This document shows, in pieces, positions 10,784 through 60,422 of a DNA stretch of 64,000 nucleotides (its first letter is position 1; every line of letters begins with the position of its first letter). Position numbers and translations under genes: made by a program. Source of the DNA: Gnetum montanum (Eukaryota > Plantae > Gnetophyta); contig MNCI01002568.1 of the NCBI GenBank assembly GCA_015680685.1, positions 128,844 through 192,843 on the forward strand, written 5' to 3'. The notes under the pieces are model-generated. The model was not told the origin of the DNA. It did no database searches and saw nothing but the letters and a program-made list of their open reading frames with translations.

Positions 10784-10784
10784 T

Positions 10785-10932: not shown

Positions 10933-13900
10933 ATGGCTTCTTCTCAAAGGGAATATTCTTTGCCACTGTTTAAGCATAACGCCAATCAGAAAAGGCAAGA
11001 AGGTCCAAAACCACCCATGCCCCAACAATGCAAGGTGATATATATGCATTTGAATGAGTATATTCTAGATTTTACCTTCCCCTACACCAAGATGAATAAC
11101 TGAAATGGAAAGACATGGAGGGAAACATTGTGTTGCCTCCCAATCAATCAATTCCTATGATGCTGCTTCATAATCTCATGAGATTGAATATCATAAGGCT
11201 CAATGTTGAGTAATTTGTGCAAGATCATCATCCCACAAAGACACAAAGAAAGAAAGATCAGCACATAAAAGCTTACTATGAGGCATCAAAAGGAAAATGG
11301 ATCTCAAAACCCTTGTTTCAGCTAGGCCAAAAGGAAGGGAAAGATTCCTTCTCGGGGGGTTCTCAATACACAGCTTCTCCTTTTCTTCCCTTCAACAAAG
11401 GGGCCCTTAACTAGCATCTACAATCAACTATAAATAATCCTAAATCTAGGAAAAATGGTTCCTATGACCATGGAACCTCAAAGGAAGGGAGTCAAGGTAG
11501 GAGTAATGACAAGCACCATGATAACAACAAACATGGTGATCATGGAAGGGACAAAAGAAGAGGAAGTAGCAGGCATCATTTTTGTGCTAGTCCTTCTTCC
11601 TCTTCGCCTCCATCATCCTCATCATCTTACTCCTTCAACTTTGACCCAAGCTGTAGAGGGAGAGACCATGATGGAGGTGATTAGCAGAACAAAGATGATC
11701 ATAGACCCTATTGGAACAGTACAGACCAGGGGTGTGTGTAGTCAAGGAAGGCCCACCATAAAGAAAGAAGGGACAGTACAAGGCATCATAGGCATCATGG
11801 CCATCATAGGGACCATGACTATGATGAGCCTTTTCTTGCCACCAGAAACATGTTAAACATTACAGAGGCTGTAAGGATTCCAATAAGGCATGTGAAGGAT
11901 AGTTAGATTAAATAGTTGGACATGAATAGTATCCCTAAGTTCAAAGGAGAATAAAATTATGATCCACAGAATCATCTCCAAGCCTTTCATGATGCATGCA
12001 TCTTATATAAGATTGAGAAAAAATGGTAGAAATTAAAGCTATTTCCCATGATACTCATCACTAAAAGCTGGTATCAATCCTTATAACTAGAATCAATATA
12101 ACGATGGATTATGATGCTTGAACTCTTCAATGACAAGTATCATACATACTCCTAAGTGTCTAACTTGATAAGGAAAATCCAAGGTTAGAAGCAAGGCACA
12201 CATGAATCATTGGATGCTACCATGGGTAGATATTACTCATTATTGCATAGATGCCTAGGTCATGGCTATTCTCAAAGGGATCAACTACACCATATCATAG
12301 ATGGGATTTGAATAGAAATGAGGAGAACTCTTAGGATCTATGCCCAAGGATGGCTTTCTAAGCTAAGGGTCCATCAAATCCAGAGGCTAATTGAGCATGT
12401 GGCCAAAGAAGAAGGTGAGCTAAGGAAAAGAAATAGTACAGAGGAGTACAACCATGATCCTTCCATTAGCAAAAGGAAGGTTTGATTTTGTGACACTAAG
12501 GAGGAGGCACCACTTGATGAAGTGGTGGAATAAAAAACCTTACCGATACAAAAATCTGTTTCTAAAATATCAGTCAAGGTTGAAAAAATGTGGAACTATT
12601 TAAATGAAAAGTTCCAAAATACTCTCAAAATTGCTAAGGAGACCAAAGAGTAAGGTAGTGGTTGTGATAGAAGGCAAAAGAAGGAAGTTGAACATGCCCA
12701 TCAAAAGGGTAAGGGCAAAGTTGTTGTAATGGATGAGGCTACAAATTTTGAAATAGATGATGAAGGGTGTGATGTATGTCAATATGAACATCCTAAGGGA
12801 TGTTGTTCAATTGTGTCATACTTGTAGAAATCCAGGTTGTACCCTTTGAATCCTCACTTGGCAAAATGGCAAACACCCATGAGGTTGCCTTATCCTCAAG
12901 GCAACTACAGGCAGTTCCACCAACAAGTCTACTATCCGAGTGGAGCACCACCTCAAATTCATGATCAATACTAGTAGTGAAAATACCCACAGCTATGAGG
13001 GATGCCACCACCAAGGTAGCAATACCCTTACCATCAGCCAGATCTGTACAAGTACTATATTTAACAACCCATTTCTCCACGTGACTTTTCTAGTCATGCT
13101 CCTTTTCAACACCACTACTACCTTCTTGAATATTATAGAGTGCAATCTCCAAGAGGGGAATCCCCATTTTCTTATTAACCTCCTCATCCTTTTGAACCTA
13201 CACCTCCACCCTTAACTCAGTTACCACTCACTCCATCCATGCAAGGCAAAATTCCAACCCAACTGCAATAGAGAAACACCATAAGGGCTGTTAACTTATA
13301 GCCGACTCCTCAACCAAGTGGTTCAAATACCAACCATGAAAAATGACCCTTTTTCTGAACTAATAGTCCTACTAAGCCCTCACAGACATCTATGGCTACT
13401 AACCCTACTTCTTCTTCCTCCTCTGCAACATCCTTCGAGATCCCTTCAAATCAAATGCCTTCCAAAGTGCACACTATAATGTTGACCCATGCAATCATTG
13501 ATTAGATAAAGGGTAGCCATCTTTCCAAGAAGAGATCTAATCTTGGAATTCCCCTTATTTACTTTCAACTCGTCAAAAATAAACCTTACAAGGCTCTTTT
13601 AAACTCAATTTTTTGTGTTAATTTAATCTCACAAGAAATGTAAAAAGACTAGAACCTGCCTCCACTTAAGAAGATCAACATTTTTTTTGAGTTATCAAAT
13701 TAGTCCATCACTGTCCCCTTGGGATTGGTGGAGGATATTGTGATCACTATTTGTGGATGGTCATATCCTACTAACTTCCTAGTGATTCACATGGATAATT
13801 GCAAGGGGAACTTTCCTATCATCATGGGAAGGGCTTGGCTAAGTACAATTAATGTGCAACTGAGAATCAAATACCTATCCTTGCAAATCTCCAAGAAGAA

Positions 13901-16900
13901 TGAATTTAGAAAGATAGAGGAGAAGCACATTCCATGCATTAAAGTACCACACTCACAACATGCAAGTAGCGTATAGATGTCATGGAAGTGCAAAGGTGTC
14001 TGTACATAGCAACCACAAAAGAGGAGGGCACCTAGTGGCTAACATCTAAAGTAGAAAGAAGTTCAACCTTGTGCATGGAATAAACTGATAGTTTTACAAA
14101 TGCCTACGTTGAAGGCATGGATGAACTGGAGTAAGTTCATACCCAACTCTCCGATGAACATAATGAAACCAATTGGAGAGATTTGAAAATCACTGAGAAC
14201 TTCAAATAGAAGTCCCTTGAGTTAAATACTCTACCGGTTGAGATGGAGCTTTTCTAAATAATGGAAAGCTAGTCATCATCAATGCCAACCTTGCTTCTAT
14301 GCAAAAAAAAAAAAAGAAGTTTTTGGAGGTGGTCAACAAATGGCTAATAGCCTTCGCTTAGTCATATCATGAGCTAATTGAAATTGATCCAAGGATATGC
14401 CAACATTAAATTTACATAGATTCCTCCATTAAACCAAATAGGCAACTACAGTGGTTGAACCCCAAACTCAAGTAGATCATCAAGAAGAAGATTGGACAAC
14501 TCCTCAAGGTGGGGTTCATCTATCCCACTATGGATAGTGAGTGGGTTAGCCCACTTGTGATCATGCCAAAGAAAGGTGAGAAATGGAGGGTCTACATTGA
14601 TTTTAGACTATTGAACATGAAAACATTCAAGGATCATTTTCCTTTATCATTTTTGGACCAAGTGTTGGACACAATTTTTAGGAATTTCTATTATAGCTTT
14701 CTAGATGGTTATAGTGAATATAATCAAATCTAGATAGCACTGAATGATGAGGCCAAAACCACATTCACAAGTCCCCAACCAAATCTAGATAACACCAAAG
14801 GATCATGCCAAAACCACATTCACAAGTCCTTGGGAGACTTTTGCATACAGAAAGATGCCTTTCAGCCTATGCAATGCCCCTACAGCATTCCAACACCTTG
14901 TCCTCAACATCTTACAACAGCAAATCAATAGTTGGGTGGAGGTATTCATGGATGACTTCTCCACCTATGGGGCTACATTTGAGCAAGCCTTGGACAATCT
15001 TGAGCAAGTGCTGAAAAGGTGTATGGAGAAAAACCTTAGGTTCAACTAGCAGAAAAGCCACTTGATGGTCCAAGAGGACATTATTTTAGTGTACAAAATT
15101 TCATTAAAAGGGATTGAAAGGGATTGAGTAGACCCTAAAAAAATAAGGATCATCCAAGGAATAATCCCAATAACTAGAAATAGTTAAAGCTGTGAGGTCA
15201 TTCCTTGGTCATAATAGCTATTACTGGTACTTCATTGAGAATTTCTTTAAGATCACAAAACCATAGTGAAGCTGACAAAGAAGGATGTTCCATTTGTTTG
15301 GACTAAGGAATGCAAGCATGCATTCCAGAAAATCAAGTAGAAGCTCATGGAAACTTTGATTCTACAACTACTTGATTGGTCTAGACCCTTCCACATTATG
15401 ATGAATGTATCAAATTATGCCTTGGGAGTTGTGCTTACATAGTTGGATGATCAAAAACGTCCCTACTATATCCACTCTGTAAGTAGAAGCATTGTGAGTG
15501 CATAGATGAATTACACCACCATTGAGAAAGAACTAATGGCAATGGTGTATGCCTTGGAAAAATTCGAGCACTATGTGCTTGGATATAAGGTGTTTGTGCA
15601 CACAAACCATAGTGCAATTAGGTTCTTAATAAATAAGCCAATAATGAGCCCCCATGTCATAGGGTGGCTAGTAATCTTACAAGAGTTCAATCTAACCATG
15701 ATGGACAAAAAGGGAATTGAAAATGTGATAGCTGACCACTTGTCTCAATTGAGATGGAACAACAAAGAGGAAGAAAGCTCACTTTCTAATCAATTTTCTA
15801 ATGAACTCATCTTTGATATAGTTGTTACTAAACAATAGCCCAAGGAAGACAACTGGGATGATGGCATCCTCACCTGTGTACTCTCTCAGGAGATGCCATA
15901 AGAATGGAACAACACAAAGAAATAATAATTTCTTCACCAAGTTAAACACTTCATGGAAATCAATAGACACCTTTACAAGGTGTGTGCCAATGGCCTACTT
16001 TGATGATGTTTTCTTGATGATGATGAACTACATGTTCTCCAAGACGCTTACGAGGGTCCTTATGGGGACCATTATGTTGGGATGAACAACTATTAAAATC
16101 CTCATGGCATGGTATTACTGGCCAACACTTTTCAAGGATGCCCATCACTTCATCCACTTTTGTGAACACTATCAATGTGATGATGGGATGACCGCTTGCA
16201 TGGAGGACTCTTAGCAGTGGATCTAACCACTAGAGCCCTTCAACATTTGGGGCATCAATTTTATGGGATCCATCACTCCCATGTCTAATGGGAAGGTGTA
16301 CATCATAGTAGTCATTAACTACTGCACCAAATGGGCAAAAGGTATGGCCATTACTAATTACACATCCCCTACAGTGGCCCAATTTGTACAACAACATGTG
16401 GTAAATAAATTGGGGGTGCCACATGCACTTATTTATGGCAATGGAACTCACTTTACAAGCCCCACTTTTCAAAAGCTCATGCAACACTTATGGGTTGAAC
16501 AAAAACTAACTCCATGCCACCGCGAAGCCAACGATCAAGCAGAGGTTACCAATAGGGAGATAACAAAGATACGAACATGAACCTTTAGTAAATATAGGAT
16601 GGATTGGAGTACCAAACTCAAAAATGCTCTTTGGGCCTATCGCTACACTTGGGAACTTCCTATCTATTACTCTCCCTATGAGCTCATGTACAGAAAATTA
16701 CCAACTCTTCCTATCCAAGAGAAACTTTGTACACTATCAACAACTTGTGACCTCTACCTTGACTTGAGCCTAGCACAGAAAGAATGGTTAATGAATCTCA
16801 ACTTGCTAGATGAGGCCTGACTAGTGGCCTTATCATCTAACGAAGTGCACAATGCATATAATAAACAATGACATGACCTTAGAATCAGAAAAGTAAAATT

Positions 16901-17100
16901 TCTACTAAGAGATAAGGTCCTATACTAGAATCCCATACATGTACCATAACTAACTAAGTTCCAAATTTTGTGAGAGGGACATTATATTATCTATGAAACC
17001 TATCCATCTAGGGTCATGTTAATATACAAACTTGACAGCCAAAACAAAAAGCTATTAGTTAATAATCAATAGATAAAGCCTTTCTAAGAAATCAAGATAG
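10933..17100 (+). pseudogene. gag-pol polyprotein of element A (many stops and frameshifts)
   Basis: Gag capsid (DPQNHLQAFHDAC, KLKLFPM) about 11930-12300; PR end FPIIMGRAWL; RT SEWVSPLV, DHFPL, MPFSLCNAP, VFMDDFS; RH NYTTIEKELMA, NVIADHLS; INT fragments 16263-16820. Confidence 0.92.
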
Positions 17101-19058
17101 CCAACAATAACAACATCTCAATCAATGGACAAGCACACTCCATTTTTTAGATCTCCTTCTTTCAAATCAATTGTGGGGGAGATCGCCATCCATACTAAAA
17201 TCAATTAATGTGGCTCCTCGGTTTTTACTTCTTCTTTTTTTACATCATTTTTAGCATGTTTTTTTCTTTCTGGATTATTTTACAATTTTTTTTTATATTT
17301 TCTCTTATTTGGTTTAGATTCTTCTTATGTTTTTCTTTTATTTCTTTATTGCTACTAGGACTTCATGCAACTATAGCTATCAACTAATGGTGGTTTGTAC
17401 TTTATAATGTTATTTGATCATGAATGTTTGGATTCTATCTTTGATTTTTGATGTTGATAACTAAGTCATGGTTCCTTTTCATGATAACAGGTAGTGAGTC
17501 CACATCATCCACTAATCCACACCACTCTATGGTGTTCCCTTGGTTTGGAAGGATAAAGTTCCTTCTTAAATGTAACTTTTAATGAACTTGTGACCTTGGT
17601 ATTTTTGAAAATTGGGATGAATTAAAAGGATTGATAAGGATGTGACTTCATGGAGATTTAACACTTTTTATGCTTGCCTACCCTCTTGGGTGCATCAATA
17701 TCTTCATAGGTCCTTTGTCATTCCTATGTTGACCAATAATAGGAAGCTAAGTCTTTGCATGGTGGGGTTACCATCCAAAAAATCCAACAAAAAAAACAAT
17801 AATTGGAATTCAAAGCACATCCTTTAGACTCAATTACAAGCTACAAGCACTGGTTATGGGGTTAGAAAAACATGTTACCCATGCCTAAAGGCCCCCTCTA
17901 ACTAAGGTCCTTCTCCTTCCTACTTCTCTTTAATTCTCTTTTTGGAATGGTGATTGATCTATGGGGATGTTCTTATGCCCTAGAGGGTGGAAGTGGACTA
18001 GTCTAAGAGTGTTAATGTGAAGTCACTAGCAGTGGATGATTTTAATTTGAACTAAGGATGGACATTATCAGGTCATATTAACCACAAAATCCACAAGGGA
18101 CTTCATGTGGCCATGATATGGGACTCCATTCCACACTCTACTTCATCCACCTATGCTTCCAATAACTCACCTCGCTACATTTTCTCATGTTTGTTTCAAT
18201 GTCTTGGTTTGATATGGTCTAAGTTTTTTTTATAGTTTCCTTGGTAATTTGGTCCTTAACTAACCATAACCATTAGTCATCCATGGGGCCCACAAACTCC
18301 TTGCTTTGAGGGCATGTAAGGACATCAAGGGCATTAGCCTACTATGGGAAGGACCTACTTACATACTCCTTGGTTGGGATGGTTAAGTTCCTCAACCCTT
18401 TAGCAATTTCACATTTAAAGCCTTCATACTCCATGTTAATTACATCTAGTTTCGCACTCCTTAATTAAAATTCTCCAAAAAAAAAATTCATTTTTATGAA
18501 TATTCTCATCCTTTTCATGCATTCCATCATGTTTTAGGATTTTTTGGATTTTTTGGACTCCATTTTTATGCCAAAACTCTTTCTTTATTTTCAACTATGT
18601 TAACATGACCTCGTCTCAATGCAATATATAATCTGCCTATAAATAACACAACACTTAGCACATTTTGCACATTTTCTCTCAAATGCACAAGGAGTGTTTA
18701 CCATTTCAAGAGCCTAGAGCCTTCCAAAGCCCATAACTCATGAATCACTTATCTAATTAACTCTGTTCTTCAATCCTATAGCTATTAGAGATGAGATATA
18801 TGTCGTGGGGGCCATAAACCTTAGGTTTTTAACAAAAAAATTTTCTAGCTCCTAAAAGGTTTAACTAATAAAATAATATTAAAATCACAAACTCATGAGA
18901 GTTAAACCTTTCCAATGAACTCTGGTAGCTATCTAATTAAAATAATCAATCCACCATAATCACAAGTTAGCCTCAGTGTAACTGCTCAAAAGAGACAAGG
19001 TATCAAACCATCCAAGTTACACACTAAATGATAATTATTGGTCATGTTGTGATTATAG

Positions 19059-22102: not shown

Positions 22103-22968
22103 TGATGAGTCATCATTGTTTAGACTACATTAACGTGATCTTGTTGACATGTACCGATCGATGTAGCTATGTCGATGCATACCCATCAACATAGCTATGT
22201 TGACACATACCCGTCGATGCATGATTTGATGCATCAACACATACACATCAAAAAAATGTCTAGTATTGGATATATAAATGCACACACCTACCACATTTAA
22301 GGCATTCTTTCATTAGTAGGATAGTGAAGCTCTTGCAATTTGTTCTTTTGAGAGTTAGAATATTTTCTAAATGCCCGCAGTAGGAGTTGAGAAGTGTACA
22401 AATCTTTACTCAAGCACTTATGTACCTAGACACTTTAGTGTGAACAACAATAAAGATAAGCTTAATGATAAACCTTGCATCACTTGGAAATAGCATGATA
22501 TTTACTTTAAAGCACTTTACTGTTATGCAATTTACTTTCATGCATTTAATTATCAATTGAATATGGATAATTAATGCACATAAGTATGACCATTTTAAGC
22601 ATACGTTAATGCTTGGTAATCCTAGTAGTATAGCAACGTGTTCAAGATGTGTACAGCATATGGGAATGGATGTTTATGTTAGGATTAGTTAAGGTGTTAG
22701 ATAGTTTCTAGATTAATTAAGAATTTAATTACTTTATTTTCACACTTGGGAGAAATCGATAAAAATATAAAAGTTATGCAAATCATGTATCTTAGTTACA
22801 TTTAACCATACCCTTGAACCTCACTAGGAAGACAACAATCATGTCCTTGAAATTCACCACCTAGATATTGTGTACTTAGAGAGCTAATGTCTATGAAATT
22901 CGACCAAATCGCTTAGTAAATGCTAATGATTCGTATGGTTGCACATCGGGACTACTTGTTGCTCATCA
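22103..22968 (+). repeat. 3' LTR of element A
   Basis: TGATGAG...GCTCATCA termini; RTCGAY/ATGCAT repeats before the TATA box. Confidence 0.92.
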
Positions 22969-40584: not shown

Positions 40585-43500
40585 TGAGTTTTATAGGTTT
40601 AGGACTTGGTGGAGACATCTTGAAGGTAAGAGAAATGTCCTATCTAAGAGTTGAGACTTCACAGGAGATGTTTGGAACACACAAAAGACATCATTGCCAA
40701 GAGCTAAGTCTTCAAAGGAGACATCTTGAATCTTGTGGAGACGTCTCTTTAGAGTGGAGACATCTTAGAGGAGATGTTTCCCAAACTATTGGGACATCTC
40801 AAGTGAGACATCTAAATTAGGAGAAGACATGTTAGCTAGGAGAAGACGCCTCACCCAAGAATTTGATATCTCCCAAACTTAGGAGATGTCTCTTCTAAAA
40901 GTATGGTTTTGATAGGAGATGACCTGAAGAGGTTAGAGATGACCCATACAACTAAGGAGACTTCCAAAATTACCATTTCAATTCAGAAAACAGCCGTAAG
41001 AAGGTAGAAAAAGATGAAAAATAGCCAAAGGTCCTCCAATTAATTTGGGAAAAGGTTTCTAGGCATCTTACCTTTTGTTGTTAATAAATATTGGTTTGTT
41101 TCATGTTTGTACTAAGGAGAGATGTGAGTGAGATGTCATGAGAGTACATGTGAAGAGTGCATGAGTGTGTATGAAGCTCTTGCTTAATTGATTTGAGTAT
41201 TGACCTAATGTCTCATATGTCTTGTGAGTTAAAATCTTAGTCCCAGGTTATGGGAAAAATTCTTTCTTAGTTGTGTCTTGCATTGAGAACAACCATTATG
41301 TGGTTGTAGAGCCTCATGCTTTGCAACATTGTTTGAGTGTTTTTGAGGGATTATTGAATGGTTTGTGGATTTTGAAACCCTCATGTAATCTTCTTTTAAT
41401 AATTAAAGAGAGCTAGTTTTCTTATTTTCTAGCATATTTTTTGTCTTTTCATAATATCTGGATTTAGTAGAATTGAACGTGATTTTTCTTTTGGATTGAA
41501 CCTACTCTAGCTAATTATTGGTATTGGAGATATTTTTAGTAGATTTTTTGTTAGACTTGGTTGCAAATTTTGTCAAATTCATATCTCACCTAAGAAGAAA
41601 TAGGTTCAAGCCATGAATAGAGACATGAAGAGCATGAAGCTTTCCTTTCAACTGATGGTCTGTTAGTTAAATGAAATTAGTAGAAAGGTAGATAAGAATG
41701 TTGAATCTAGCCATATCCAAACACGTGAAGGTGATGAGCATTCATGTTTAGATGAAGAAGTTTCATAGCCTGGTGGAGATGGAGCAAGTGATGGGGAAGG
41801 ACAATCTAGCAATGGGAGTATAGGGACCCATCAACTAAGGATTCCAATGGAAGGGAATCCTATTCCTCAAATGAGAATTTCAAGGGCTCCAACAGTGACA
41901 ACAACTTCTTCCCCTGGCATTCTTAACAAGGAGGATGAAGTAAGACTTGCGAGAGCATTTCATAATGTTACAAGACTTCCATACATTGAGTTGAAGACTT
42001 TCAATTATGTAGATGGCACCAATGCTTTTTCAAGTTGGCTAAAGATACTTGACAAGCACTTTGAGTTGGAAGAGGTACCTCACTTGAGAGTACCTATTGC
42101 TAAATCTAGACTAAAAGAAATGACTTCTACTTGGTGGAAAAAGGAGTCCTATGATTATGAAAGATAGAATGGTCAATCCATCAAAGCTTGGAATTTGATG
42201 AAATATAAGTTGAGTAGAAAATTTGAATTGTGTTGTTAGACACAAGAAACCATTATGATGTTGAAATTCCCAAGGCAATGTGACAAGGATAGTAATGAAT
42301 TTTATATCAAATTTTGGAATCTATTCCATCAAGCTAAAGTGAATTGGGAGGAGTATGAATAAGGTTCAATCTTTCTAGGAGGCCTCAAAATGGCATACTA
42401 GTAGAAGTTGTATTTTTTATGAGCCATAAACTTTTAATAAGGCTTATGATTTGGTACTCAAGGAAGAAAAGAAACTAAGCAAATTCGAAAATAGGAGCAA
42501 ACAAAGTTCCAAGTGGAAGGACAAGAGATCCAAATCTAAGAAGGGATCCAAGTCAAAATTTGAAGACAAAGATGGTAGCCATGACAAGAAGATAGAAAAG
42601 GATGATGATAAGGATAAAGCTAAGAAGAACCAAGGCAAAGGAGACAAGGGTCAAGGCAACAACTCATCCAAGATTCAATGCTTGAAGTGTGGACAATGAG
42701 AACACAAGTAATGGGAATGTCCACTTTACAAGGCAACCAAGGGCAAAGATGTAAAAACAATGGAAGTGTTGGAGACATCTAGCTAAGCTGTTCAAAGAAT
42801 TAATCCTAATGCTTCCAAGATTGAAAAAGTTTCTAAATTAAATTCTTGTGCATTCATGGGAAATGTAAATAGGGAAGATCATCCTAATAGAAAATTATTG
42901 TTTTGTATTGAGGATAGATGTTTGCTTAGTGAGAAATGGGTTCATATTCTGATTAATGGAGGAGCCCAAAAAATGTTATTTCTTCTAGGATAATTGCTAA
43001 ATTGGATTTGATAATCCTCATTCTAGAACTTATAAGGTGCATTGCTTGTATAGAGATTTCTCTCAAGAGGTGAGGGAACAATGTACTTTGAAATTTAAAA
43101 TTGAAAGTTTTCATGCTGTTGTGAAGTGTGATGTGTTTCCAATAGATTGTGTTAATGTAATTCTTAGTAGACCTTGGAATTTTAACAATGGTGCTTAGTT
43201 TGATATAGTAACTACTGTATGAAGTATAGCTAGATTTTATGGAATCCATGAGTTGATTCCTATTATAGCTAAATAAGTGAGGTAGTAAAGCTTACTTAAT
43301 GCTTCATTAATCCTTCTAGAAGAGAGGGAATACATTAAGAAACATGATGAAATAGGTTTTGAGTTATTTGTTGAATTAACTATTGTTTCTAATCATGATG
43401 ATGTGCAGGTTGAACTTCCTACAGGTGTGCTAGGCTTTAAGGAGAAATTTTCCAAGGTACTTAAGGGGAAATTGAATGGATTGCCACCAATGAGAAATAT

Positions 43501-43875
43501 AAAACATTATATTGATTTCATAACTAATGCTACCATTCCAAACTAGAGAGCTTACAAGATGGTACCAAATCAATGGGAATAATTGCAAAGGCAAGTAGAG
43601 GAGTTACTTGCAAATGACTTTGAGAAGAAATTCATTTCACCTTGTGCAATTATAGTGATGTTAGTTCCAAAGAAGGACAATGATGAATAGAGGATGTGCA
43701 TTAATTCTAGGATAGTGAATAGGATAATAGTAAGGTACAATTTTCCTATTTCGAGGATGGATGATATCATTAATGTTCTTTCCAATGCTAAAATTTCTAG
43801 CAAAATTGATTTGAAGAGAGGTTACCATCAAATTAGAGTCAGCCCTATTAATGAATGGAAGATGGATTTCCTTCA
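40585..43875 (+). mobile_element. 3'-truncated CRM-like copy C (LTR, PBS, gag, PR, partial RT) in opposite orientation inside the INT of D
   Basis: LTR ends at 41517; tRNA-Met-type PBS TGGTATTGGAGA at 41519-41530; gag 41847-42720 with CLKCGQ knuckle; RT start RYNFPISRMDD...KIDLKRGYHQIRV; homologous to the reverse complement of 52750-55200. Confidence 0.85.
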
Positions 43876-45177
43876 AACCTATCCAAAATTTAAATCATGT
43901 TTATAGAAATCAACAAAATCATTCATATCTTGCACATGAGAAATGTTAAAACTCACCACATGCATCCTAGATAAAGCATTTCCCATCACATTGGCTTTCC
44001 TACTCTTATGCTTGAACATAATAATGAACTCCTATAATTGTGCCATCCACTTTATGTGTTTGGTGCTCAACTTCTTTTGAGAATTAAAAATTGAAGTGCT
44101 TTATGATCAATCATCAAAGTGAACTCGAGCAACAAATAATGCCTCTAATGCTTGATTTCTTGAAGCATAGCATATAATTTCTTCTTATATAGACTATATT
44201 TCTACCTTAACCTATTCAATTTTTTTAAAAAAGAAACAAATGAATCTTCTTTCTTGTGAAAGCATCCCTCTAATTACAAGTCCACTTGCATCCACCTCCA
44301 ACTAAAAAAGCTTTTGAAAATTTAGTATTGTATGCACCAATTCATTGGTTATTTTTGCCTTCAACAAGTCAAAGATTCTTTGGGTTTTATCACCCCACCT
44401 AAAATCTTGATTCTTCATAAGTGAAGCAAACATAGGACATGATATACCACTAAAAGTTTTTATGAACCTTTTGTAAAAACCTATTAAACTAAGAAATGAT
44501 CTTACCTTCCCACCATTTCTAGAAGTTGGCCAATCTCTCATTGCCTTCACCTTGGTAGCTTATATTCAAATTTGATTTTTAGAAATTACGTGTTCCAAGT
44601 ATGTGATCTCCCTTTTTAAGAAATGACTCTTCTTCATGTTGCCAACTAATGAGTGGCGAGGTACCTCTACACTCAACCATATGAATACGAGCGTTTCACA
44701 CGTGATCTGGTCGAACTCTGCAGATGGACTAGTTGTGGTATCCATATAGTTACTTGTAGGTTGCAGTGCGCTGTCTTCCCACCTAGACTAGTATTAGCTT
44801 TGTCATGTATGGTTTAGTCCAGAGTGAGGTGTATGATGTGTTCCTACACTAATGCTACTCCTGGGTATGAAGGTAAATAATATTAACTAAACTAGGAAAG
44901 AGAGAGAGAGAGAGGGTGAGAGAGAATCTAAACTAGCCTAAGTGTGATGAGCATCCGTTCCTTAATCATCNNNNNNNNNNNNNNNNNNNNNNNNNNNNNN
45001 NNNNNNNNNNNNNNNNNNNNNNNNNNNGAGAACAAGCTCTATTGATTACACAGTGGATAGGTATGGGATTATTGACTGGTGAGAATGGATTCATGCCGCA
45101 GTGTGGAATCAGAACAAAATTAAGACACAACACGGAGAATGTGAAAGAAAATCCTATAGCTACAAAATTGATGGAAC

Positions 45178-47971
45178 TCATGTAGTTCTTGGTGGTGGTG
45201 GCTCCTCCATGGGTGCCTTCTCCTTGTCTTGTGCTCTAGGTCTTGGGACTTGATGGCATTGAAGTATGGCCTGGAGTTTCTCCTCTTTGGTTCGGGAATC
45301 CTGTGCCGTCCATGCCAATGTTCCGATGTTTGATGGAGTTGTCACCTCCCATGGGCAAGGTAGTTGAGGAAACATTTTTTTTGCTTTGACATACCAGGTC
45401 GCAAACACCCGTTGTTCCTCCTTGTAAGCTCTAGCTTTGTCTTTGTATTCTTGAAAATCTACAAGCCATCAAGCCAAGTTTGTCACAACACCTTTTTGCC
45501 CCTGGTAGCTTGCTTTAACCACCTCAAGTTTAGAATTTGCAACCTCCAATTTTGCAATATCTTCTTGCGTTCTACAAATTGTGTTTCATATTTGATGTAG
45601 GTGGTGGCTACCTGTTGCTTGAGATCTCTTCTTGAGCATCCTGTTGTTAACATGGCAAGGTTGGCATACCATAGGTTTACCAACTCCATGTATTCTGTAA
45701 GGTCCTGGATCTACAAGTCCCGATTCTTAACTTTTGCTTAGTGGACAAATGCATATGTGTTCAATATGGCCCGCCAGTCAGTGTGTTGAGCACTGAGAGT
45801 GTTGATATGGGTCTTGGCCATATGGATCTCCTTCTCGATGATCTGTTTATACATCCCCACTTGGTCCCGGACGTGCTCCTTTAGCTTTTCATGCTGTTTA
45901 GCCTCATTCTGCCACACGCTTATTTCAATAGCCATCTTCTAACAAATGGTGCGTACCTCCTCCATCGAGAGGGTTCGATTTTCCTTGGCTAAATGGTTCA
46001 TGTCCTGGTTGGCCCTGATGAGTTGTTCTCGCAACTGTTGAAAATGTTCTTCGAGAACATTCTTTTGCTTCTCCATAGAGGTCAATCGAAAGTTGTCAGC
46101 AACAAGTTGCTTGTTTTCCTCTTGTAAGGCCTTGAGTGCCTTGGTATGCATGTAAGTTTACGCTTTTGTTGCAGAGGCATCCCAGAAAGCCTTCTCTTTT
46201 TATTTTGACACCTTTTTATTCTCCATCAATAGTTTGTTCAGTTGCTCAGTTTTGAAAGTGTTCAGTTGGTTTGCGGGAATAAATTGAGAAGGATCTTGTT
46301 GTGCTACTTTTAGGGTCATGAGCCTTTCTTGCAATTTTTGCACCTTTGCTTCAGCGTGCTCAGCCCTCATCTCTATCAAGACTAGCTTTCCCTTGGTGGA
46401 AATGAGGTTTAATTGAATTGTTGTAACATCCTGTGGGATGTCAAATAGGGATGTCATTACTTGTCCTATTTGTAGCAATTGGTCAAGTACATCCTCATGT
46501 TCCGCAAGAGTCATTGAAATTCTGGCTAGAGTTTGAGCATCTCATGCTCCTATAAGATCTACCGGTGGCACAAGAGGTACATTGAATGGTTCTTTAATGT
46601 GATCTACGACCACTTCTGTGACTCCCGCTACATCCTGGTGCTGCATAACCACCACCGTGGCCCCTTCACCTATTTCTAATTGCACTTGAAATGATGCAGT
46701 GTTCCCTGAGATCTGTTGTAACCAAGTGCTCTCCCCTCCTCCTTTATGGATGGACACTTCATCCCTTGTGCGATCCAAATAAATCATGGGCTATATGACA
46801 TCGTCGATGATGCAGAAGAGATTTGCATCATCATGACTTCCCCAACTGATCGTCTCAGTGATGGCCCTAAGATGGCTCATCGATGGTCTATAATCTTGCG
46901 GCGGTGGCGGTGGTTGATCCTGCTGGCTCGTGCTAGGCCCTGCTTCTTGTTGTTGGCTGGGTCCCATGCTTGGAAGTTGGCTGGGTTCTACAAGTTGAGT
47001 TGCAGTTGGCCCTACTGTTTGTTCCTTTTCTTATTCTAGCCCCAGCATCTCACCAGTGATTTTCCTTGCAGCTGGTGGATTTAGCAGTTCAGCATATGAA
47101 GCATTTTGGGCTTTTTAGAGGACATCATTGGTATATCCTCTAATACTAGCACGTCGGCACAGCTTCCTGATAAGACAAGGGAAGGGCAACACAAGCTTCC
47201 CTGTCTTCTGTTCTTCAAACCGCCTCAAGATCTTCGTAAAATATAGATGAGGTAGGTTAGCATTAACCTTTTCCATCAACACTGCACATCCTCTTACCAC
47301 ATATGTTGAAATTCTTTTTAAGCCCTTTTTAGGGAAGAGGTGATAAGTCCCTATTTTGAAATAGATCCTCTCTTCCGTCGTCAATTCCCCAAACATCTTA
47401 TCTTCCTTGCCATACGTCCTTTCCAACTAAACTCATCGTGCATTAGGGTCTGAACAGGTATACAATTGAGCAACCTTTGGCCCTATATTCAGAAGGTTTA
47501 ATACTTTCGAAATGATGTGAATAGAGAAATCAACTGTCACACCACAAATATTAATCGTGGTGCCTTGTTCTTTGTGTTGCCAAAATTGGTATGTTTCCCC
47601 TAAGTACTAGGCACCACTTTCAGAGAGGATAGGCCATAATGGAGATCCTTTGAGGTGGTCCCTAATGGCCTCTAGGGAAAATTCTTCAAAAGATCCAAAG
47701 TTTAATTCCACAATCACTATAGTGAATATGGACCTTTCATGGATGGCCTGAACACAATCTTGGGGCAACGTGAGATGTTGTCCCTGTTTAGGTGCTGTTG
47801 TAGCTCCTCCTTCTACCTACCTTGATTGTATAGTAGTAGGGTCCTCTTGGTGGATACTAAATGATTGTTCCTCCTGCTCTACATGCTGTCGGGCAGGAAC
47901 TTTCCACCTCTCCTAGGTTGTTTACTCCCACCTTGAGCAGGATCTTCCTATTGTCCACGTTTTGGGGCCAT
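45178..47971 (-). pseudogene. Athila-like accessory ORF, copy 3 (best preserved)
   Basis: MAPKRG start after TGATTGCAG; YFKIGTYHLFP...LVLPFPCLIRKLCRRASI; coiled-coil ORFs 45483-46514; LPCPW...EEPPPPRTT*. Confidence 0.88.
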
Positions 47972-49803
47972 CTGCAATCACACAAGGCCCATCGTTAGTA
48001 AGGTTGTTACCAAAGTTAGGTTATACCTTACTACTTGCCTTAATGAATTTGTTCTGTCTCCATGTGATGTTTCTCGAAATAATATAATATTTTATCCTCT
48101 TTGCTTAGGTGGTTTCCAAATCTAGTTTCTTGGTATAACTAAGGGGATGAAATTATTTTTGGCACATTTATCCTTAATGTTATAACTAATTACCCTTGAT
48201 AATGTCCTTCGGGCAATGAAAAATTCCAAAAAATTTATGCGCTATATGGTGTGTGCCCCTCCCCCACGACTAAGTTGAACACTTTGAGTTCAAGTAGGTT
48301 TAGATGGAATGAAGATCAGAGGACCAATGAATGAGATATAGGTATGAAAGCAAGGGACGGGCAATTGCAAGTTGTAGAGAGAAATTTGAAAAACTCCCCC
48401 ACGTGAATAGTTGAAAATGATGTTAAGTAGCATGGGGGGTTGCATATATATATATTTATGTTAAGGGACTATGGAATATACCGAATTTTTTAAAGATTTT
48501 TCGAAAGTTAACGATGTAAACTAAGGACATGTGGACAAGTGTTAAAGGGTTCCAGGGTAATTCAAGTAGTTTTGAAGGCATGCATAAGTATGATGGTGTG
48601 GAATTGATCAATAAGAGCCTTAGGTGGTAAGGGAGAGAAAAAGGCTATGTGATGGTTCATAGGAATGTTCGAATCGGAGGGATAATAATAAGGGAAAGAA
48701 TATCGTTGAAAATATGCTGAGGGTAATAGATGGTGTGTGGAAGATGTGTTATGAGTGCAAATTACAAAAAATTACGCAAGTGAGTCCTCCCCAAAGTAGG
48801 TTCCAACCTATAATGCCCTTGCGTAACCCCACTTAAAAGTGTCTGTAGGCACTAGAAGGGTTAAATGTAATCTACACTGGTTCCACAAAACACACACATG
48901 TAAGTATCACCGGAATGAGGTCGAAATTCTACACTACACAAGACACGAGTCACAACTCCATGAATAGCAAGATGAGATGGGGTATAGAAGGGATTGTAGA
49001 TATTGGGACATGAGGTAACTAACCCAAGGAACAATGAATCCTGCATGTAAAGCATGATTAATATGTCATTAACCCATCGTTCTGAGATCAGGACCAAGTC
49101 CATTCCTCTGATCAATGACACCGCATTGTTTCATCCCATGATGAGCAACTAAGGCATATAATCACTTAGCTTTTTGTTCAAGGGAGGAGTGATTTTTGCT
49201 TTGTGGCACTTTCTTTGTTGTTGTTGTTTTTTTTTCAATTGCTGAATCCAGAGAAGCCGCCAACCTTCAGGCATGGATGCATGTCTTTCCGATGGGACCC
49301 CCTAGAACAACATTGGATTTTTGAGTGCCTTTTGATTACTCTTACTCCCATTTTGCGTTAGATCTTCAAGGATCTTAGTACAACCACATTGCGTGATAAC
49401 TCTCACAGATGTCACCAATGAGAATCCACAAGTACCCTTGATGTCACACCCTAATCATCCCCTCTTGGTCCATCCTTCTTCATTCTGGGTACAACAACAC
49501 AAAATTAATTTTAAGTTTTAAGAATGTCAAGAATATCACTGTACCCTCAAACAGAACCTCTTATTTGTAGAATGGATGAGTGGGTGTAATGGGCTCACTA
49601 TCCAAAGACTTGATCACTCGAAACTTGATAACATAGAACACACCTCAACCAACGAGCCACATGAGTGTTTTATTCATAGATGAGATTACTTATAAAAATA
49701 TAAAAAGATAAAAAGACAAAAAGGTAAAACGAGAAATTGAAAAATGAAAAACTAGAAAAAAAAAATTGTAAAATTAAAGAAAATGAAAAGATATTTATTA
49801 ATC

Positions 49804-51675
49804 CTACTTGTTATTAGAATGGGGGATATCCCCCATAACTAAACAGTTGAGCATGGTGAGGACTAATAAATGAAAGATGAGGATCCTTGCATGTTGGAAA
49901 GATTGAAACTTGGTCATACTTACCCCATTGGGATTCACACACCTGATGATAGTAAGCGTAATGGGGCAATTTATAAGATGTGGTTCCCGGATAACAAGTT
50001 GACACACTATGATACTTGAGACTGTAAGATGGTACGCAAGGATCTTGATGTCACTCTCCGTTGTTGTATTCATTGGACCATATGGTGTTGGAGTGTTAAT
50101 TGGTGCGTTGGGTTTGATGAGAAGGGTGCTCCAGTGTTGGACTTGTGCTGAGTTGGAAAAAGCAGTGGCCTTGGAACTGTGTTGTCCCTTCCTACGGTCA
50201 TGTCTAAAGAAGGGGCGCTTTCAATGTTGATGAGGTCTCTCACTGTTGTTGGCAATAGTAGCACAAGTAATGTTCGTGGGTTGTTGCTGTGGTGTAGACT
50301 CTTCAGGAACAATTGGTGGCAATGTAGAAGGAGGGAAAGGATGAGAATGTTGAAATTTAGGAGAAGTGTAAGGTACACAAGGTGGTGGTTGTGTTGAAGA
50401 CATTGGTTGATAGTATTGAGGAGAATGATAATGTGGTGAGATAGAGTATGTTGACCCAATTGGAGAAATAGGATGTTGGACTAGATAAGCATTTAGATTC
50501 AGATGATCTGAAGGGTGTCTCTAGTTTAGGGATGGTTTCTCCCATGACTGGGATTGTTGCCACTATGGTTGAACATAGTATCTCTGTACGAACTCTGGGT
50601 GTAACGTGCTTCCCCAATGCTCATATAAATGTAACAAGATTGGGCATTGGCCCTTGGGATGATCGTACAGGCAAAGGTTGCATTCATATGTATGATTGGT
50701 AGTTGAGCCCTTATCTTCCTCATCCCTTCTTTCCGATTGTCTAATGATACTTTGTCCTACTTCTTGGGTTGTCAAAACTCTATCTTCAATAATATCAATA
50801 TATTCTCCACACTTTTTATGTGTCCATTCCAACATCTTATTGATCTTTGCCTCGACTTCCTCTAATGATTATTGTACTGGAAAATATGGTTCTTCCTCCT
50901 TGAGATAGGTTGATTTCTCCCTTTTATGATCATGGACCTCTGTTAAGTTGAGATTTTGGTCCTATTGATGTTTTTCAACACTCTCCCATCTAGCCATTTC
51001 TCCTTATTTTTTTGCTACTCACTTGGTAAGCTCTTGGAGTTGGTGGGTTCATAGCTCATATAGTTGACCTTGGGCTTACATCCCTAGGGTCTCCCTTGTT
51101 TNGTCCAAGGGTTCATGTTGTGCTTGTTTCCACTCTTGGATTTTTTTCCTCAAGGTCGACACTCTTGCGTAGGTTTGATATCTTTCGTTAAAGAGTTCTA
51201 CCATTATTAGCCAACGTCGTATTGAATTTGGTTTTAACAATATATACCATACTTTTGCTTGGCCAACGAGTGTCATAGGAAAGAGCTTAAGTTTTTGCCA
51301 ACCATTATCAATGTTGTTCCATGCATAGGCATCGTAGAAGGCTTGTAAATGTTGTTGTGGATCTAAGTCATAGCCTCCTGAGAAATTGGGAAAGTTGTTT
51401 AAATCGAGCCTAGGTAGGAGGCTCACTGTACGATGCCTACGGGAGATTTGAACAGCCTCTCGTATTTGCGTTAGGCTTGTGGTGGCTAGTAGGGGTTCAT
51501 CGTTATCGAGTAAGTTATGCTTTCGTGGATTGGGATGATGCTGCTTTTGTTTATGTTTATAAGAAACCCCCACCTTAAATTGTGTACTCCAATCTTCATT
51601 GTCATATAATTCGTTGGTTCTCCAATGAATTTCCTCACTAAGTATGGCATTATCATAGTCTTGTAGGAGAGGCAT
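49804..51675 (-). pseudogene. gag of the pol-less Athila-like element
   Basis: FPNFSG..DPQQHLQAF...KLKLFPMTLVGQAKVWY...NSIRRW capsid motif; CNLCLYDHPKGQC zinc knuckle; Pro-rich tail. Confidence 0.88.
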
Positions 51676-51794
51676 GGTTGTGCAATTGTGTGAGAGTTTA
51701 TATGTGAATTTTTATAATTATTTCTTCCTAAAAGATATATCGTTAATTCCTATATAGCAACCTTGTATGATATAACTAATCTAGATTACTAGCA

Positions 51795-51812
51795 CCCCCG
51801 ACAACGGCACCA
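51795..51812 (-). promoter_or_regulatory. Primer-binding site complementary to the tRNA-Asp 3' end (Athila type)
   Basis: Minus strand TGGTGCCGTTGTCGGGGG, one base after the LTR end CTCATCA. Confidence 0.9.
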
Positions 51813-51813
51813 A

Positions 51814-52531
51814 TGATGAGTGGCAAGGTACCTCTACACTCAACCATACAAATATGAGCGTTTCATGCGAGATTCGGTCGAACTCCATAGACGGACTAGT
51901 TGTGGTATCCAGACAGTTACTCGTAGGTCGCAGTTCACTATCTTCCCACTTGGACTAGTATTAGCTTTGTCACGTATGATATAGTCCAGAGTGAGGTGTA
52001 TGATGTGTTCCTACACTAATGCTACTCCTAGGTATGATGGTAAATAATATTAACTAAACTAGGAAAGAGAGAGAGAGAGGGTGAGAGAGAATCTAAACTA
52101 GCCTAAGTGTGATGAGCATNGATAAGGGTGAAGAGATATTAACTAAGAAAGTAGTAAATAACAAATAAATAAATAAATAAATAATTAAGTTAAGTGGATG
52201 CTACAATGATGAAGTAATCTCGATCTTTATTGTCGGTCATGTGCGTGTCCAAGTACGTCACACTCGAATAACGATGCTGTACAATTACAATCACCACACT
52301 GCGGGCATGCATTGGGAGATAAGGGTTAAGAGGAAAAACTGATGTACTAAAAACTTGTTGAAAACTTAAACTTAATAACTCTAAAAACTGCCTACCAGAT
52401 CTGCCTACCTCTTATTTATAGATGAGGAGACAGGCTGCGATATCGCGTACACGATATTATGTCTAGGTTGTGATATCGTGTACGCGATATCATGGCTGCG
52501 ATATCGCAGCCAACAAATTCATGACTCATCA
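51814..52531 (-). repeat. 5' LTR of the pol-less element
   Basis: TGATGAG...CTCATCA termini, GCGATATCGC repeats, CTATAAATAAGAGG TATA, (GA)n tract; an N at 52120. Confidence 0.92.
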
Positions 52532-55241
52532 CCAACCAAACATGGCTCCTTCAATTTGAGACATATACTTCTCAAATGTTCCAAGTGCACATCCTCATTG
52601 CAATTATATATTAAAATATCATAAAATAAATAATATAATACTTATCAATCAAATCATTAAGAACATTATGCATCAAACTCATGAATGTCAGAAGAGAGTT
52701 TGTGAGCCCATAAGGCCTTCCCAACCACTTAAACAATCCATCTAGTATCTTGAAAGAAATCTTTCATTCATTACCAAGCCTAATCTAAATTTCATGATAC
52801 TCACTCTTCAAATCAATTTTTTTGAAAATTTCTATATTGGTAAGAATATCACTGTTATCTTGTTCATAGGTCTTGAATCATTTGATATCCTCCATTTGTC
52901 ACTATTCTTCTTTGGCACAAGCATTGCTAGAACTACACAAGGAGCGATTGAATTTATTATAAAGCCATTTGTAAGTATCTCCTTTACTTGACTTTGCAAT
53001 TCAACCCTCTAATTTAGTGTCATTTGGTATGCTCTTCAATTTAAAATGATATTACTAAGAATGAAGTCTATTTGGCATTGAACATTCCACATTGTTGGCA
53101 ATCCATCTAATATCCTTATTAAATACATTAGAAAATTACTCCTTTAAGCCTAGTACACTTGTTTAAAGTTCTACCTAAAAAACATCACAATTAGAAAAAA
53201 TAGTTGATACAATCACAAATCCAAAACCTACCTCATCATGTTCCTTAATATATCACCTCTTCTCAAGAAGGATTAAGAAAGCATTAAGTGACATTTTCTA
53301 CCACACTTATTTAGAAATCATAAAAATCAACTCATGGATTCCATATTCCCTTGCTACACTTCATATATTTCTTGCATCATCAAATTGAGCACTATTATCA
53401 AAATTCCAAGGCCTCTCATAATTACATCAACACAATTAATTGGTAGCACATCATATGTTAGAACATCATGATAACTCATAACCTTGAAATTCAAAACACA
53501 TTGTTCCTTCACCTATTGGGAGACATATTTAAACAACCAATGCATCTTGTAGGGTCTATGATGAAGAGATGTCACTAAACCTAACATAGCAATTATCCTA
53601 AAGGAAATAATATTTTCTTGGGCTCCTCATCAATCAAAATTTGCATCCATTCTCTAATAATCAATCATCTAGCCCCAATTCTAAATATAATTTTCTTGCA
53701 AGATGATTTCCTCTATTCAAATTTTCCATAAATGCACATCAATTTAATTTAGAAACTTTCTCAATTTTTGGCACATTAAGATTACCTCTTTAAAGAACTT
53801 TGGTTGATGGCTCATCTATCTTGAAGGTTTGTACATCCTTACCCTTGGCCACCTTGTCAAGTGGACATTCCCATCGTTTATGTCCTCACTCTCTAAATTT
53901 GAAGCATTGAATTTTGTATGAGTTACTATCTTAATCTTTGCCTCCTTTCCCTTGGTCCTTCTTGGTCTTATCATTTTCATCACCTTTATCTTCCTTCTTG
54001 TCATGGTTGCACTCTTTGTCTTTATATTTTGACTTGGATTCCTTCTCTAATTTGGATCCCTTATCTTTTCCCTTTGAATCTTGTTTGTTCCTACTTCTAA
54101 ATGCATTGATTTCTTATTTTCTTTGAGTGCCAAATCATAAGTGTCATAAGGGTTTAAGGCTTATAAAATATCAATTCCTACTGATCCACCATCTTGAGAT
54201 CTCCAAGAAAGATTAAATATTACTCAGACTCTTCCTAATTAACTTTAGCTTGATGAAAATATCCTAAAATTTAAAGTAGAATTTCTTCACATCCTTGTCT
54301 TCATATCTAAGGGATTTAGCTTCATGATTGTCTCTCACCTCTTCCTAGATTGTTCAAATTTTTGTTTCAACTGGTACTTCATCAAAGACTAATCCCTAAT
54401 AGGATGTCCATTTTAACTCATATAGCTTTGAGATTCCTTTTCCCATTAAGTTGAAGCCAATTCTGCTAATCTAGAATTAGTAACTAGTACCCTCAAATGA
54501 TTTGGTACCTTCTCATGCTCAAAATTCTTGTAAATTACTTTCAACTAGTTTACAAAGACATTGGTGTCATCTACATTGTTGAAAGTCTTCAATTCTACAT
54601 AAGGAAGTCTTATAGCATTTTTGAAAGCTATGGCAAGTCTTGATTCATCTTCATCATCTAATTTACCATGAGAAGAAGAAGTTTGTGATGGATTTTTTTG
54701 GGATTTTTAACATGAGAACTTAGGTTTCTTCCTCTTAGAACCCTTGGTTATGGGATCTAACACTCCCATAGCTAGAATGTTCTTCTTCTCATCTTTTCTC
54801 CCTCTACTAGATTTAGAAACTTCTTTGTCCTTATTTGAATGGATATGCGAATCATCACCATGAGATTGAATATTTTTGGAACTTACATTTCTATCCACAT
54901 TAGCACTAATTTCATCTAATCAGTCTAGCTCTTGATAGAAGCTTATGGTAGAAAAGAACTCATATAGCCAATCCCATGTTGGTGGGACAAGGCTAGGATG
55001 ATGATGATCTAGCTCTTCATAGAGATGAATGACAAAAATGAAATCATGTAGTCAACCTCATTTTGTTGGAACAAGGCTAGGATGATGATGATGATGATCT
55101 ATCATTAGTTGAAAAACAAATTTCATGCTCTCTACCTCTTTATTTAGGGCTCAAACATATTTCTTCTTAGGAGCTATCTAAAATAGGCATAAAAATTCAC
55201 AACTAAATCTAAAAAAAAAGAGAAATCCTATGCTTTCATGC

Positions 55242-59800: not shown

Positions 59801-60422
59801 GAGTCTGATCTCTTACTTGGCCTCTTCCACGGCCTCTTGATCTTTTGCTACCATGTTGGGAAGGTCATTTGGCTATTAGTCTCTTTGGGACCATCTACAA
59901 TCATCAAGAGGTTAAGGCTACCAAAGTGTTTAAATTAGTTCTTAATGGTTCATAATCCTTTGCATACTCTTTGTTTGATCAAGTTCTTATCTTTTTCTAT
60001 TAGTTATGGTCTTTATTATGATTGTAGAGTTAGAAAATTTTCAAAAAGAAACTCAATTTTATGTCATGAATTATTATGACCTTCTATAGTTATCATTTCC
60101 TTTTTTATTGTGTCCTTAGATGGTTGGTATGGTTAGTTAACAGAATTAATTAAACTCTTTAGCTCAAATTTGGTTGATTAGTTATAATATTCTTGTTGTA
60201 TCCTTATACTTACAATTTATATCATTTTTTGGGTGTTAGGAAATTTTGGCTTAATTATCTTGATGTGCATGCAATAGACCCCCCATGACTAAGTTGAGCA
60301 CTTCGAGATCAATAAGGTTTAAGAATTTTGCAAATCAAAGTTGTTGTAAGGAAGTTATGGCATTTGGATGTTTACTTATTAGAGCTCAAAAAAATTGCAA
60401 AAACTCCTCTTACTTTGAAATG
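56855..60422 (-). mobile_element. Athila-like element 4, 3' part (partial LTR 56855-about 57275, accessory ORF, spacer)
   Basis: LTR terminus TGATGAG at 56855 with family GGATTACCAAG repeats; accessory ORF homology 57300-59894; PPT-like site near 60280. Confidence 0.8.
57300..59894 (-). pseudogene. Athila-like accessory ORF, copy 4 (C-terminus deleted)
   Basis: MVPKR start after TGATTGTAG; YFKIGTYYLFP...PKLPFPCLIRKLCNQVGI; collinear with copy 3. Confidence 0.85.

What the first reader, a model, noticed from the sequence alone, without database searches (positions are those of the whole stretch)
44647..52531. Pol-less Athila-like element that transposed carrying only gag and a large accessory ORF
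Seen: both LTRs, tRNA-Asp PBS, perfect CCAAC TSD, gag (capsid plus zinc knuckle), then directly the family spacer and the 2.8-kb accessory ORF. No PR/RT/RH/INT motifs and no N-gap lie between 49800 and 47971, whereas element A has about 3.5 kb of pol at the equivalent position. Known: gag-only non-autonomous LTR elements (TR-GAG, LARD) exist in plants. Inference: a gag-plus-accessory-gene satellite lineage that borrows pol in trans while keeping the accessory protein would suggest that protein benefits its carrier. A related LTR occurs as a solo at 6050.
Basis: partly seen in the sequence, partly recalled or inferred. Interest (0 to 1): 0.8.

Follow-up and report, generated by a model that had tools for sequence, protein, structure and literature searches.

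The report
Pol-less Athila retrotransposon, abundant family
This is a decayed copy of a plant jumping gene that has a capsid gene and a large extra gene but no copying enzymes, and it likely belongs to an abundant family that borrowed those enzymes from intact relatives, an arrangement already described for Athila elements in Arabidopsis.

Summary
The observation mostly holds. The minus-strand element at 52531-44647 has a 5-bp target duplication inside another gypsy pol, a 718-bp 5' LTR, a PBS, gag (PF03732 plus zinc knuckle), a 1.8-kb spacer and a 2.8-kb accessory ORF (PF20167 plus coiled coil). Relative to neighbour A, about 230 nt replace 3.7 kb of pol, with no N there. One correction: the 3' LTR is only partly seen, because its head and the PPT fall in an N gap.

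Public runs show a very abundant family across gag, junction, spacer and accessory ORF. Reads that stop aligning at the junction continue like this copy, not into pol. One 45-nt patch is thinly covered and no listed piece spans the whole junction, so family-wide pol loss is likely (about 0.8), not proven.

The architecture is known. Five of 11 Arabidopsis Athila families are gag+env without pol, and the ORFs of the four tested are under purifying selection (Marco & Marin 2008). This copy is dead. Benefit from the accessory protein was not shown here. Verdict: new member of a known kind, interest 0.25.

The parts
52532..52536 (.). target-site duplication, 5' side (CCAAC on +)
51814..52531 (-). 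5' LTR, 718 bp, TG...CA; single N at 52120
51796..51812 (-). primer-binding site (TGG-initiated; tRNA-Asp type by recall)
   Evidence: Asp PBS in the Athila-clade elements Diaspora and Calypso, PMC1142308 passages
49804..51675 (-). gag ORF, decayed: capsid PF03732 (~51288-51106), zinc knuckle at 50682, Pro/His-rich region, stop-free 138-codon tail; single N at 51102 hides about 99 nt
49917..50145 (-). pol-less junction: about 230 nt with no detectable homology to A, in place of A's 3.7-kb pol
47972..49803 (-). non-coding spacer, homologous to the post-integrase region of A; conserved block at 48745-49119; ends in AG directly before the accessory ATG
45178..47971 (-). accessory (eORF-3'F, 'env-like') ORF, decayed: PF20167 domain ~47582-47142, coiled-coil heptads ~46430-45960, no strong hydrophobic helix
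44971..45027 (.). 57-N assembly gap where the PPT and the first about 410 nt of the 3' LTR are expected
44647..44954 (-). visible 3' part of the 3' LTR; K2P 0.096 to the 5' LTR over 304 sites
44642..44646 (.). target-site duplication, 3' side (CCAAC on +)
13419..17107 (+). comparison only: pol (PR-RT-RH-INT) of the related element A, the part that the finding lacks

Best explanation
It is a decayed LTR retrotransposon copy with gag and an accessory ORF but no pol, and it likely belongs to an abundant non-autonomous Athila family whose RNA was reverse-transcribed and integrated by enzymes borrowed from a pol-bearing relative. Shown: the target duplication, the interrupted host pol, gag, the missing pol, the accessory ORF, and abundant relatives over all parts. 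Inferred mechanism: a 5'-LTR transcript made Gag and was packaged with Pol from an autonomous Athila (A is one such pol-bearing relative, but a distant one). A tRNA primed at the PBS, and the borrowed integrase left the 5-bp duplication. The accessory ORF was likely translated from a spliced subgenomic RNA, because AG stands directly before its ATG in 3 of 4 copies in the window. Its product is predicted to be a soluble PF20167-plus-coiled-coil oligomer, not a membrane-fusion envelope. My best guess is that it acted in the nucleus on host factors to keep the element transcribed (about 0.35; inference from the literature only). This copy no longer encodes intact proteins.
For: Integration as a unit: TSD and split host pol. 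Homology to A stops at B50145/A13419 (z 7.1) and resumes at B49917/A17107 (score 85 vs shuffle maximum 55). In 4 of 4 DNA runs all 26 bins over the element have summed contig depth 1.9e4-2.6e6, against 5e2-9e3 in the 4 host-pol flank bins. At the junction, bins 49932-50024 have 2.1-2.6e5 in X1, where listed single pieces have depth about 8-21. Among the 24 loose-end rows shown (of 945), the 3 that lie within 49917-50171 match this copy's own next letters by eye. For the two rows at 50132 (13 and 21 RNA reads) that is 22-23 of 28 letters. None leads to pol-like sequence. Small indels of this copy against its relatives at 50131 and 50085 flank the coverage dip and can explain it (table 4). The gag frame stays open through the junction: 0 stops in 138 codons vs 8 and 7 in the other frames. 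Long-term constraint: pS 0.80-0.84 vs pN 0.29-0.44 for the accessory ORF (3 pairs) and 0.81 vs 0.31 for gag. Best 19-residue hydropathy in the accessory ORF is 1.44. Precedent: PMC2410132 Tables 1-2; spliced ORF2 mRNA on polysomes, PMC7197481 passage.
Against: Depth falls to 613 (X1) and 188 (X8) in bin 50087-50117. No listed piece spans from above 50145 to below 49917, so continuity rests on overlapping short pieces, and 921 loose-end rows were not shown. No whole genome was held, so no second TSD-flanked pol-less copy was seen and no close autonomous partner was identified. The tool warns that summed depth is no copy number. The accessory ORF's 13 stops exceed the 97.5% bound (9-11) simulated for decay since insertion at d=0.048 and fit only d of about 0.096; gag's 9 stops are at the bound (8-10). 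The ORFs may therefore have begun to decay before this insertion, or the 304-site LTR clock is low. The non-coding control also gave pN/pS below 1 (0.58-0.73), so that ratio is a blunt test. Accessory-ORF bins are roughly 3-5 times shallower than gag and the 5' spacer.
Confidence: 0.8

Rival explanations
1. The family is autonomous, and this copy alone lost pol by a deletion at about 50087-50131, at or after insertion.
For: Coverage collapses more than 300-fold exactly there in both DNA runs and dips in both RNA runs. No single listed piece bridges the whole junction.
Against: Reads anchored on the gag side continue into this copy's 50131-50104 letters. Left-anchored reads cross 50085 (6 of 7 in X24, 3 of 4 in X21, carrying a one-letter difference) and reach into the dip bin. 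The flanking 230 nt show no PR or INT similarity to A. The gag frame is open across the site.
Confidence: 0.1
2. The element is an assembly chimera or collapse of several repeat copies.
For: There are three N gaps inside the element (52120, 51102, 44971-45027) and the family is very repetitive.
Against: The junction lies inside one N-free stretch (51101-45028). The two ends share a TSD and split one host pol in the right order. Relatives cover the junction collinearly.
Confidence: 0.05
3. The family is truly pol-less, but the accessory ORF is a passenger, kept because it lies between cis signals needed for packaging and priming, with no benefit from its protein. This rival concerns function only and is compatible with the best explanation's structure.
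For: Accessory stops are somewhat above the post-insertion expectation. Depth over it is lower than over gag, and an 836-nt skip (45280-46117) recurs in 4-8 contigs in all 4 runs. A non-coding spacer block is better conserved between B and C (77% identity) than synonymous sites are.
Against: The frame is still far more open than chance (13 stops vs 55 and 45 in 786 codons). In Arabidopsis, env of pol-less families has omega 0.19-0.30 on close trios (PMC2410132 Table 2).
Confidence: 0.3

Closest known systems
Pol-less gag+env Athila families II, IIIa, IVc, Va (includes X81801) and VI of Arabidopsis thaliana (Marco & Marin 2008, PMC2410132; parts 1-4 of 6 read)
   Same: LTR-gag-spacer-env-like ORF-LTR, no RT or integrase, amplification as families with Pol supplied in trans
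   Different: Shorter LTR (0.72 vs 1.3-1.8 kb) and longer accessory ORF (2.8 vs 1.0-2.1 kb). The family appears far more abundant than the 3-31 copies per family in Arabidopsis (rough depth inference). This copy is heavily decayed.
Sunflower Athila 14 aORF(+) (PMC11728184, section 2.5 read)
   Same: 3' sense extra ORF with a partial PF20167 match; no membrane helix was reported for it
   Different: 487 aa vs about 930 codons here; that element is described as active and was not reported as pol-less in the section read
TR-GAG / GAG-PROT non-autonomous LTR elements (as summarised in PMC13570524 passages)
   Same: keeps gag and lacks RT, RH and INT
   Different: A second large ORF is not part of the TR-GAG definition in the passages read; this element is about 8.3 kb if the gap is filled
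Element A in this window (about 9900-22968, +)
   Same: homologous gag, spacer, accessory ORF and acceptor-ATG context
   Different: A has PR-RT-RH-INT and a longer gag N-terminus; synonymous sites to B are saturated, so it is a distant relative and not the parent

Membership tests
Athila clade (Ty3/gypsy, OTA) | RT/RH/INT phylogeny within Athila | not testable with these tools
   The element has no pol; no RT tree was built for A either
Athila clade (Ty3/gypsy, OTA) | No additional aRH domain (separates Athila from Tat), tested on the pol-bearing relative A | tested here: met
   only RVT_1, RT_RNaseH(_2) and rve hit, with about 550 nt between RH and rve; A is decayed, so a weak domain could be missed. 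Criterion from PMC6317226 passage
Athila clade (Ty3/gypsy, OTA) | 3' sense extra ORF with an Athila ORF-1-related domain (PF03078/PF20167) | tested here: met
   PF20167 E 1.7e-8, 35 bits, below the 45-bit gathering cut-off; relation to PF03078 from PMC11728184
Athila clade (Ty3/gypsy, OTA) | tRNA-Asp primer-binding site | tested here: inconclusive
   A TGG-initiated PBS lies 2 nt after the LTR. The Asp match is recalled; no tRNA was on hand (one search found none in the window)
Athila clade (Ty3/gypsy, OTA) | Retrotrans_gag capsid with CX2CX3-4HX4C knuckle; 5-bp TSD | tested here: met
Non-autonomous gag+env Athila class (Marco & Marin 2008) | LTRs plus gag and env-like ORFs, no pol | tested here: met
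Non-autonomous gag+env Athila class (Marco & Marin 2008) | Pol-less structure shared by many independent insertions | tested here: inconclusive
   Short contigs and reads tile the junction collinearly at high depth, with one thin 45-nt patch; no second full copy was seen
Non-autonomous gag+env Athila class (Marco & Marin 2008) | Purifying selection on gag and env within the pol-less lineage | tested here: inconclusive
   Only deep, saturated pairs were available; stop counts are at or above the post-insertion expectation
TR-GAG | gag (with or without PR) as the only coding content | tested here: not met
   A 2.8-kb second ORF is present
Retroviral Env | Transmembrane helix in the third ORF | tested here: not met
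   Best 19-residue Kyte-Doolittle mean 1.44 in the main frame and 0.16 in the C-terminal frame; crude test on a decayed copy

The most novel reading that the evidence does not exclude
In this plant group the pol-less form is the dominant Athila, a satellite amplified to thousands of copies. It rebuilt the end of gag into a new hydrophobic tail where pol was lost, and it kept a spliced coiled-coil PF20167 protein as an anti-silencing factor, trading that protein for Pol from rare autonomous helpers.
Probability: 0.12. Interest if true: 0.6.

Novelty: new member of a known kind. Interest (0 to 1): 0.25.

Why it matters
The architecture and the benefit argument were published in 2008 for Arabidopsis, so the finding is not surprising. 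Its value is as material. The function of the Athila extra ORF is still treated as speculative (PMC6317226 and PMC7264820 passages; 'poorly characterized' in PMC13547354). A pol-less family with apparently hundreds to thousands of copies, whose sequence is found in runs of several related organisms, would give much more power than Arabidopsis's 3-31 copies per family to test selection on that ORF after pol loss.

Tried and rejected
Whole-genome copy count: no genome held.

Residual protease in the gag tail: a resemblance to A's protease seen by eye was not significant (z -0.5 to 1.2 in 3 frames), so it was rejected.

Homologue searches that found nothing: the 138-aa tail, longer lengths (89 candidates, 0 hits) and near lengths (0 candidates); the accessory ORF (7266 candidates, 0 hits at 1e-3); metagenome scans with the tail and with gag (79 and 254 pattern matches, 0 confirmed). 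These blanks are weak evidence. The exhaustive gag search gave 201 hits, with best stretches in the capsid-to-knuckle part and none in the tail among the 150 listed.

A second pol-less copy in the window could not be judged. C is cut upstream of 62742 by sequence with no Pfam hit, and D's upstream part is a LINE-like fragment (by eye).

Rfam: 0 hits at E<=0.1 over 44600-52600. No RNA holder was listed for the stretch.

Laid RNA runs gave 319 of 12.6 million and 720 of 12.9 million reads on 901 nt, on both strands, with only 3 and 2 reads at 99% or more identity. That is low-level family transcription and no sign that this copy is expressed. Poly-A loose ends at 49722-49783 lie in an A/T tract and were not interpreted.

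Earlier scan findings: none. No structure model or fold comparison of the accessory protein was obtained, so its fold is open. Supplements of the papers were not read; Additional file 4 of PMC6317226 may list similar eORFs.

Full report
Observation. The element reads on the minus strand from 52531 to 44647. CCAAC (+) flanks it at 52532-52536 and 44642-44646. It interrupts another gypsy pol: RVT_1 lies on the 5' flank (E 9.5e-7) and RNase H on the 3' flank (E 1.5e-8), in order. The 5' LTR is 718 bp, TG to CA, followed 2 nt later by a TGG-initiated PBS; that it pairs with tRNA-Asp is recalled, and Athila-clade elements use Asp (PMC1142308 passages). Only about 306 nt of the 3' LTR are visible, 90.5% identical to the 5' LTR (K2P 0.096 over 304 sites). 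The PPT and LTR head fall in the 57-N gap: the sequence before the gap matches A's 3' UTR shortly before its PPT (by eye), and 98-124 contigs in 3 of 4 runs continue past 45028. Single Ns lie at 51102 and 52120; at 51102 about 99 nt of gag are missing relative to A, so these are likely unsized gaps.

Coding content. Gag starts at 51675, hits PF03732 (E 7.8e-6), has a CX2CX3HX4C knuckle at 50682 and gives 201 hits in an exhaustive search; the 3 named of the 6 looked up are plant retrotransposon gag proteins. The accessory ORF (47971-45178) hits PF20167 at E 1.7e-8, below the family's cut-off. It has heptad-rich stretches near 46430-45960 (crude score) and no strong hydrophobic helix. Both ORFs are broken by stops and frameshifts, so this copy is dead.

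Absence of pol. Three minus frames of 47970-50700 give no Pfam hit at E<=0.5; of 8 recalled motifs in 6 frames, only one opposite-strand GPY matches. Element A has RT, RNase H and integrase. Homology to A ends at B50145/A13419 and resumes at B49917/A17107. About 230 nt therefore stand where A has 3.7 kb, inside an N-free stretch. They show no significant similarity to A's protease. The gag frame runs through them without a stop (0 in 138 codons vs 8 and 7; about 3-7e-4 for a single test) and ends in a hydrophobic stretch (KD 2.06).

Is the joint shared? No genome was held, so I used public runs; 20 of 24 listed runs hold part of the stretch. In 4 of 4 DNA runs, 309,000-366,000 contigs lie on 9.2 kb. 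All 26 bins over the element have depth 1.9e4-2.6e6, against 5e2-9e3 in the 4 host flank bins. At 31-nt resolution the junction is deep (2.1-2.6e5 at 49932-50024 in X1) but drops to 613 at 50087-50117 (188 in X8). That dip is the main result against my reading. It is flanked by small indels of this copy against its relatives at 50131 and 50085. The reads clipped at 50132 (13 in X24, 21 in X21) continue with letters matching this copy's own 50104-50131 at 22-23 of 28 positions, by eye. Left-anchored reads cross 50085 and reach into the dip bin. None of the 24 loose-end rows shown looks like a branch into other coding sequence, but 921 rows were not shown and no listed piece spans the whole junction. 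I put family-wide pol loss at about 0.8. Summed depth is not a copy number. Dividing by single-piece depth (about 10) and allowing up to about 30-fold inflation from contig overlaps (my reasoning) gives hundreds to tens of thousands of copies.

Selection. The accessory ORF against C, A and D shows saturated synonymous sites (pS 0.80-0.84) with pN 0.29-0.44; gag against A gives 0.81 and 0.31. This shows long-term constraint but includes pol-bearing history, and the non-coding control also fell below 1 (0.58-0.73). Stop counts (gag 9 of 623, accessory 13 of 786) are at or above the simulated range for decay since insertion at d=0.048 and fit d of about 0.096. The ORFs were near intact around the time of insertion, but benefit after pol loss is not shown. 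Lower depth over the accessory ORF and a recurring 836-nt skip in it keep the passenger reading alive.

Mechanism (inferred). A genomic RNA from the 5' LTR made Gag and was co-packaged with Pol from an autonomous Athila, primed by tRNA and integrated with a 5-bp duplication. AG directly precedes the accessory ATG in B, A and C, but not D. This fits a spliced subgenomic mRNA, as reported for ATHILA ORF2 (PMC7197481 passage). A PF20167 aORF of sunflower Athila 14 is predicted nuclear (PMC11728184 section 2.5), and the Athila domain is predicted to oligomerise through coiled coils and to contact many host proteins (PMC13547354 passages). A nuclear host-interacting role is therefore my best guess over envelope function, at about 0.35 and untested.

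Comparison with what is known. Marco & Marin 2008 (PMC2410132; parts 1-4 of 6 read) found that only 4 of 11 Arabidopsis Athila families have pol. Their Table 1 lists II, IIIa, IVc, Va and VI as gag plus env without RT or integrase. Omega is 0.19-0.38 on gag and env in the four such families tested, and they propose mobilisation in trans and possible cooperation. The finding is that class in another plant. It is not TR-GAG, since it has a second ORF (PMC13570524 passages). Athila membership rests on gag type, eORF domain, TSD and A's lack of aRH (PMC6317226 passages), not on an RT tree. Five literature searches were run; I make no claim that this particular family is unpublished.

Verdict. New member of a known kind, interest 0.25.

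Noticed in passing
window 48745-49119 (-), 62347-62721 (-); weaker at ~18260-18375 and ~3300-3420 (+): A non-coding spacer block is 77% identical between B and C while their accessory ORFs are synonymously saturated; a likely cis element (packaging, splicing or promoter). No Rfam hit.
   Followed up: partly
window 50085-50131: Two small indels of this copy against its relatives lie 46 nt apart and together keep the gag-tail frame; a hint that the tail was coding, or an alignment artefact.
   Followed up: partly
window 45280-46117: An 836-nt skip within the accessory ORF recurs in 4-8 contigs in all four DNA runs: a possible amplified deletion variant.
   Followed up: no
window 48605-51981 vs 45228-48297: Contig depth over gag and the 5' spacer is roughly 3-5 times that over the accessory ORF; many relatives may lack it or carry a more diverged one. 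Contig depth is unreliable for ranking.
   Followed up: no
window ~57100-62742 (-): Element C, the closest relative in the window, has a solo-LTR-like insert at about 60423-61200 and is cut upstream by sequence with no Pfam hit (62740-64000).
   Followed up: partly
window 6050-6855 (+): An LTR piece inside D's accessory ORF, closer to A's LTRs than to B's, without a canonical 3' end or clear TSD.
   Followed up: partly
window 900-2509 (+): A LINE-like reverse transcriptase fragment upstream of element D, recognised by eye from the translation.
   Followed up: no
window 41755-43863 (+) and 52759-54825 (-): Two related gypsy pol segments, 72% identical, in inverted orientation on either side of the finding; the minus-strand one is the host that B interrupts.
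   Followed up: partly
window 10800-11780 (+): Element A's gag has about 1 kb more N-terminal sequence than B's, with Ser/His-rich low-complexity stretches.
   Followed up: no
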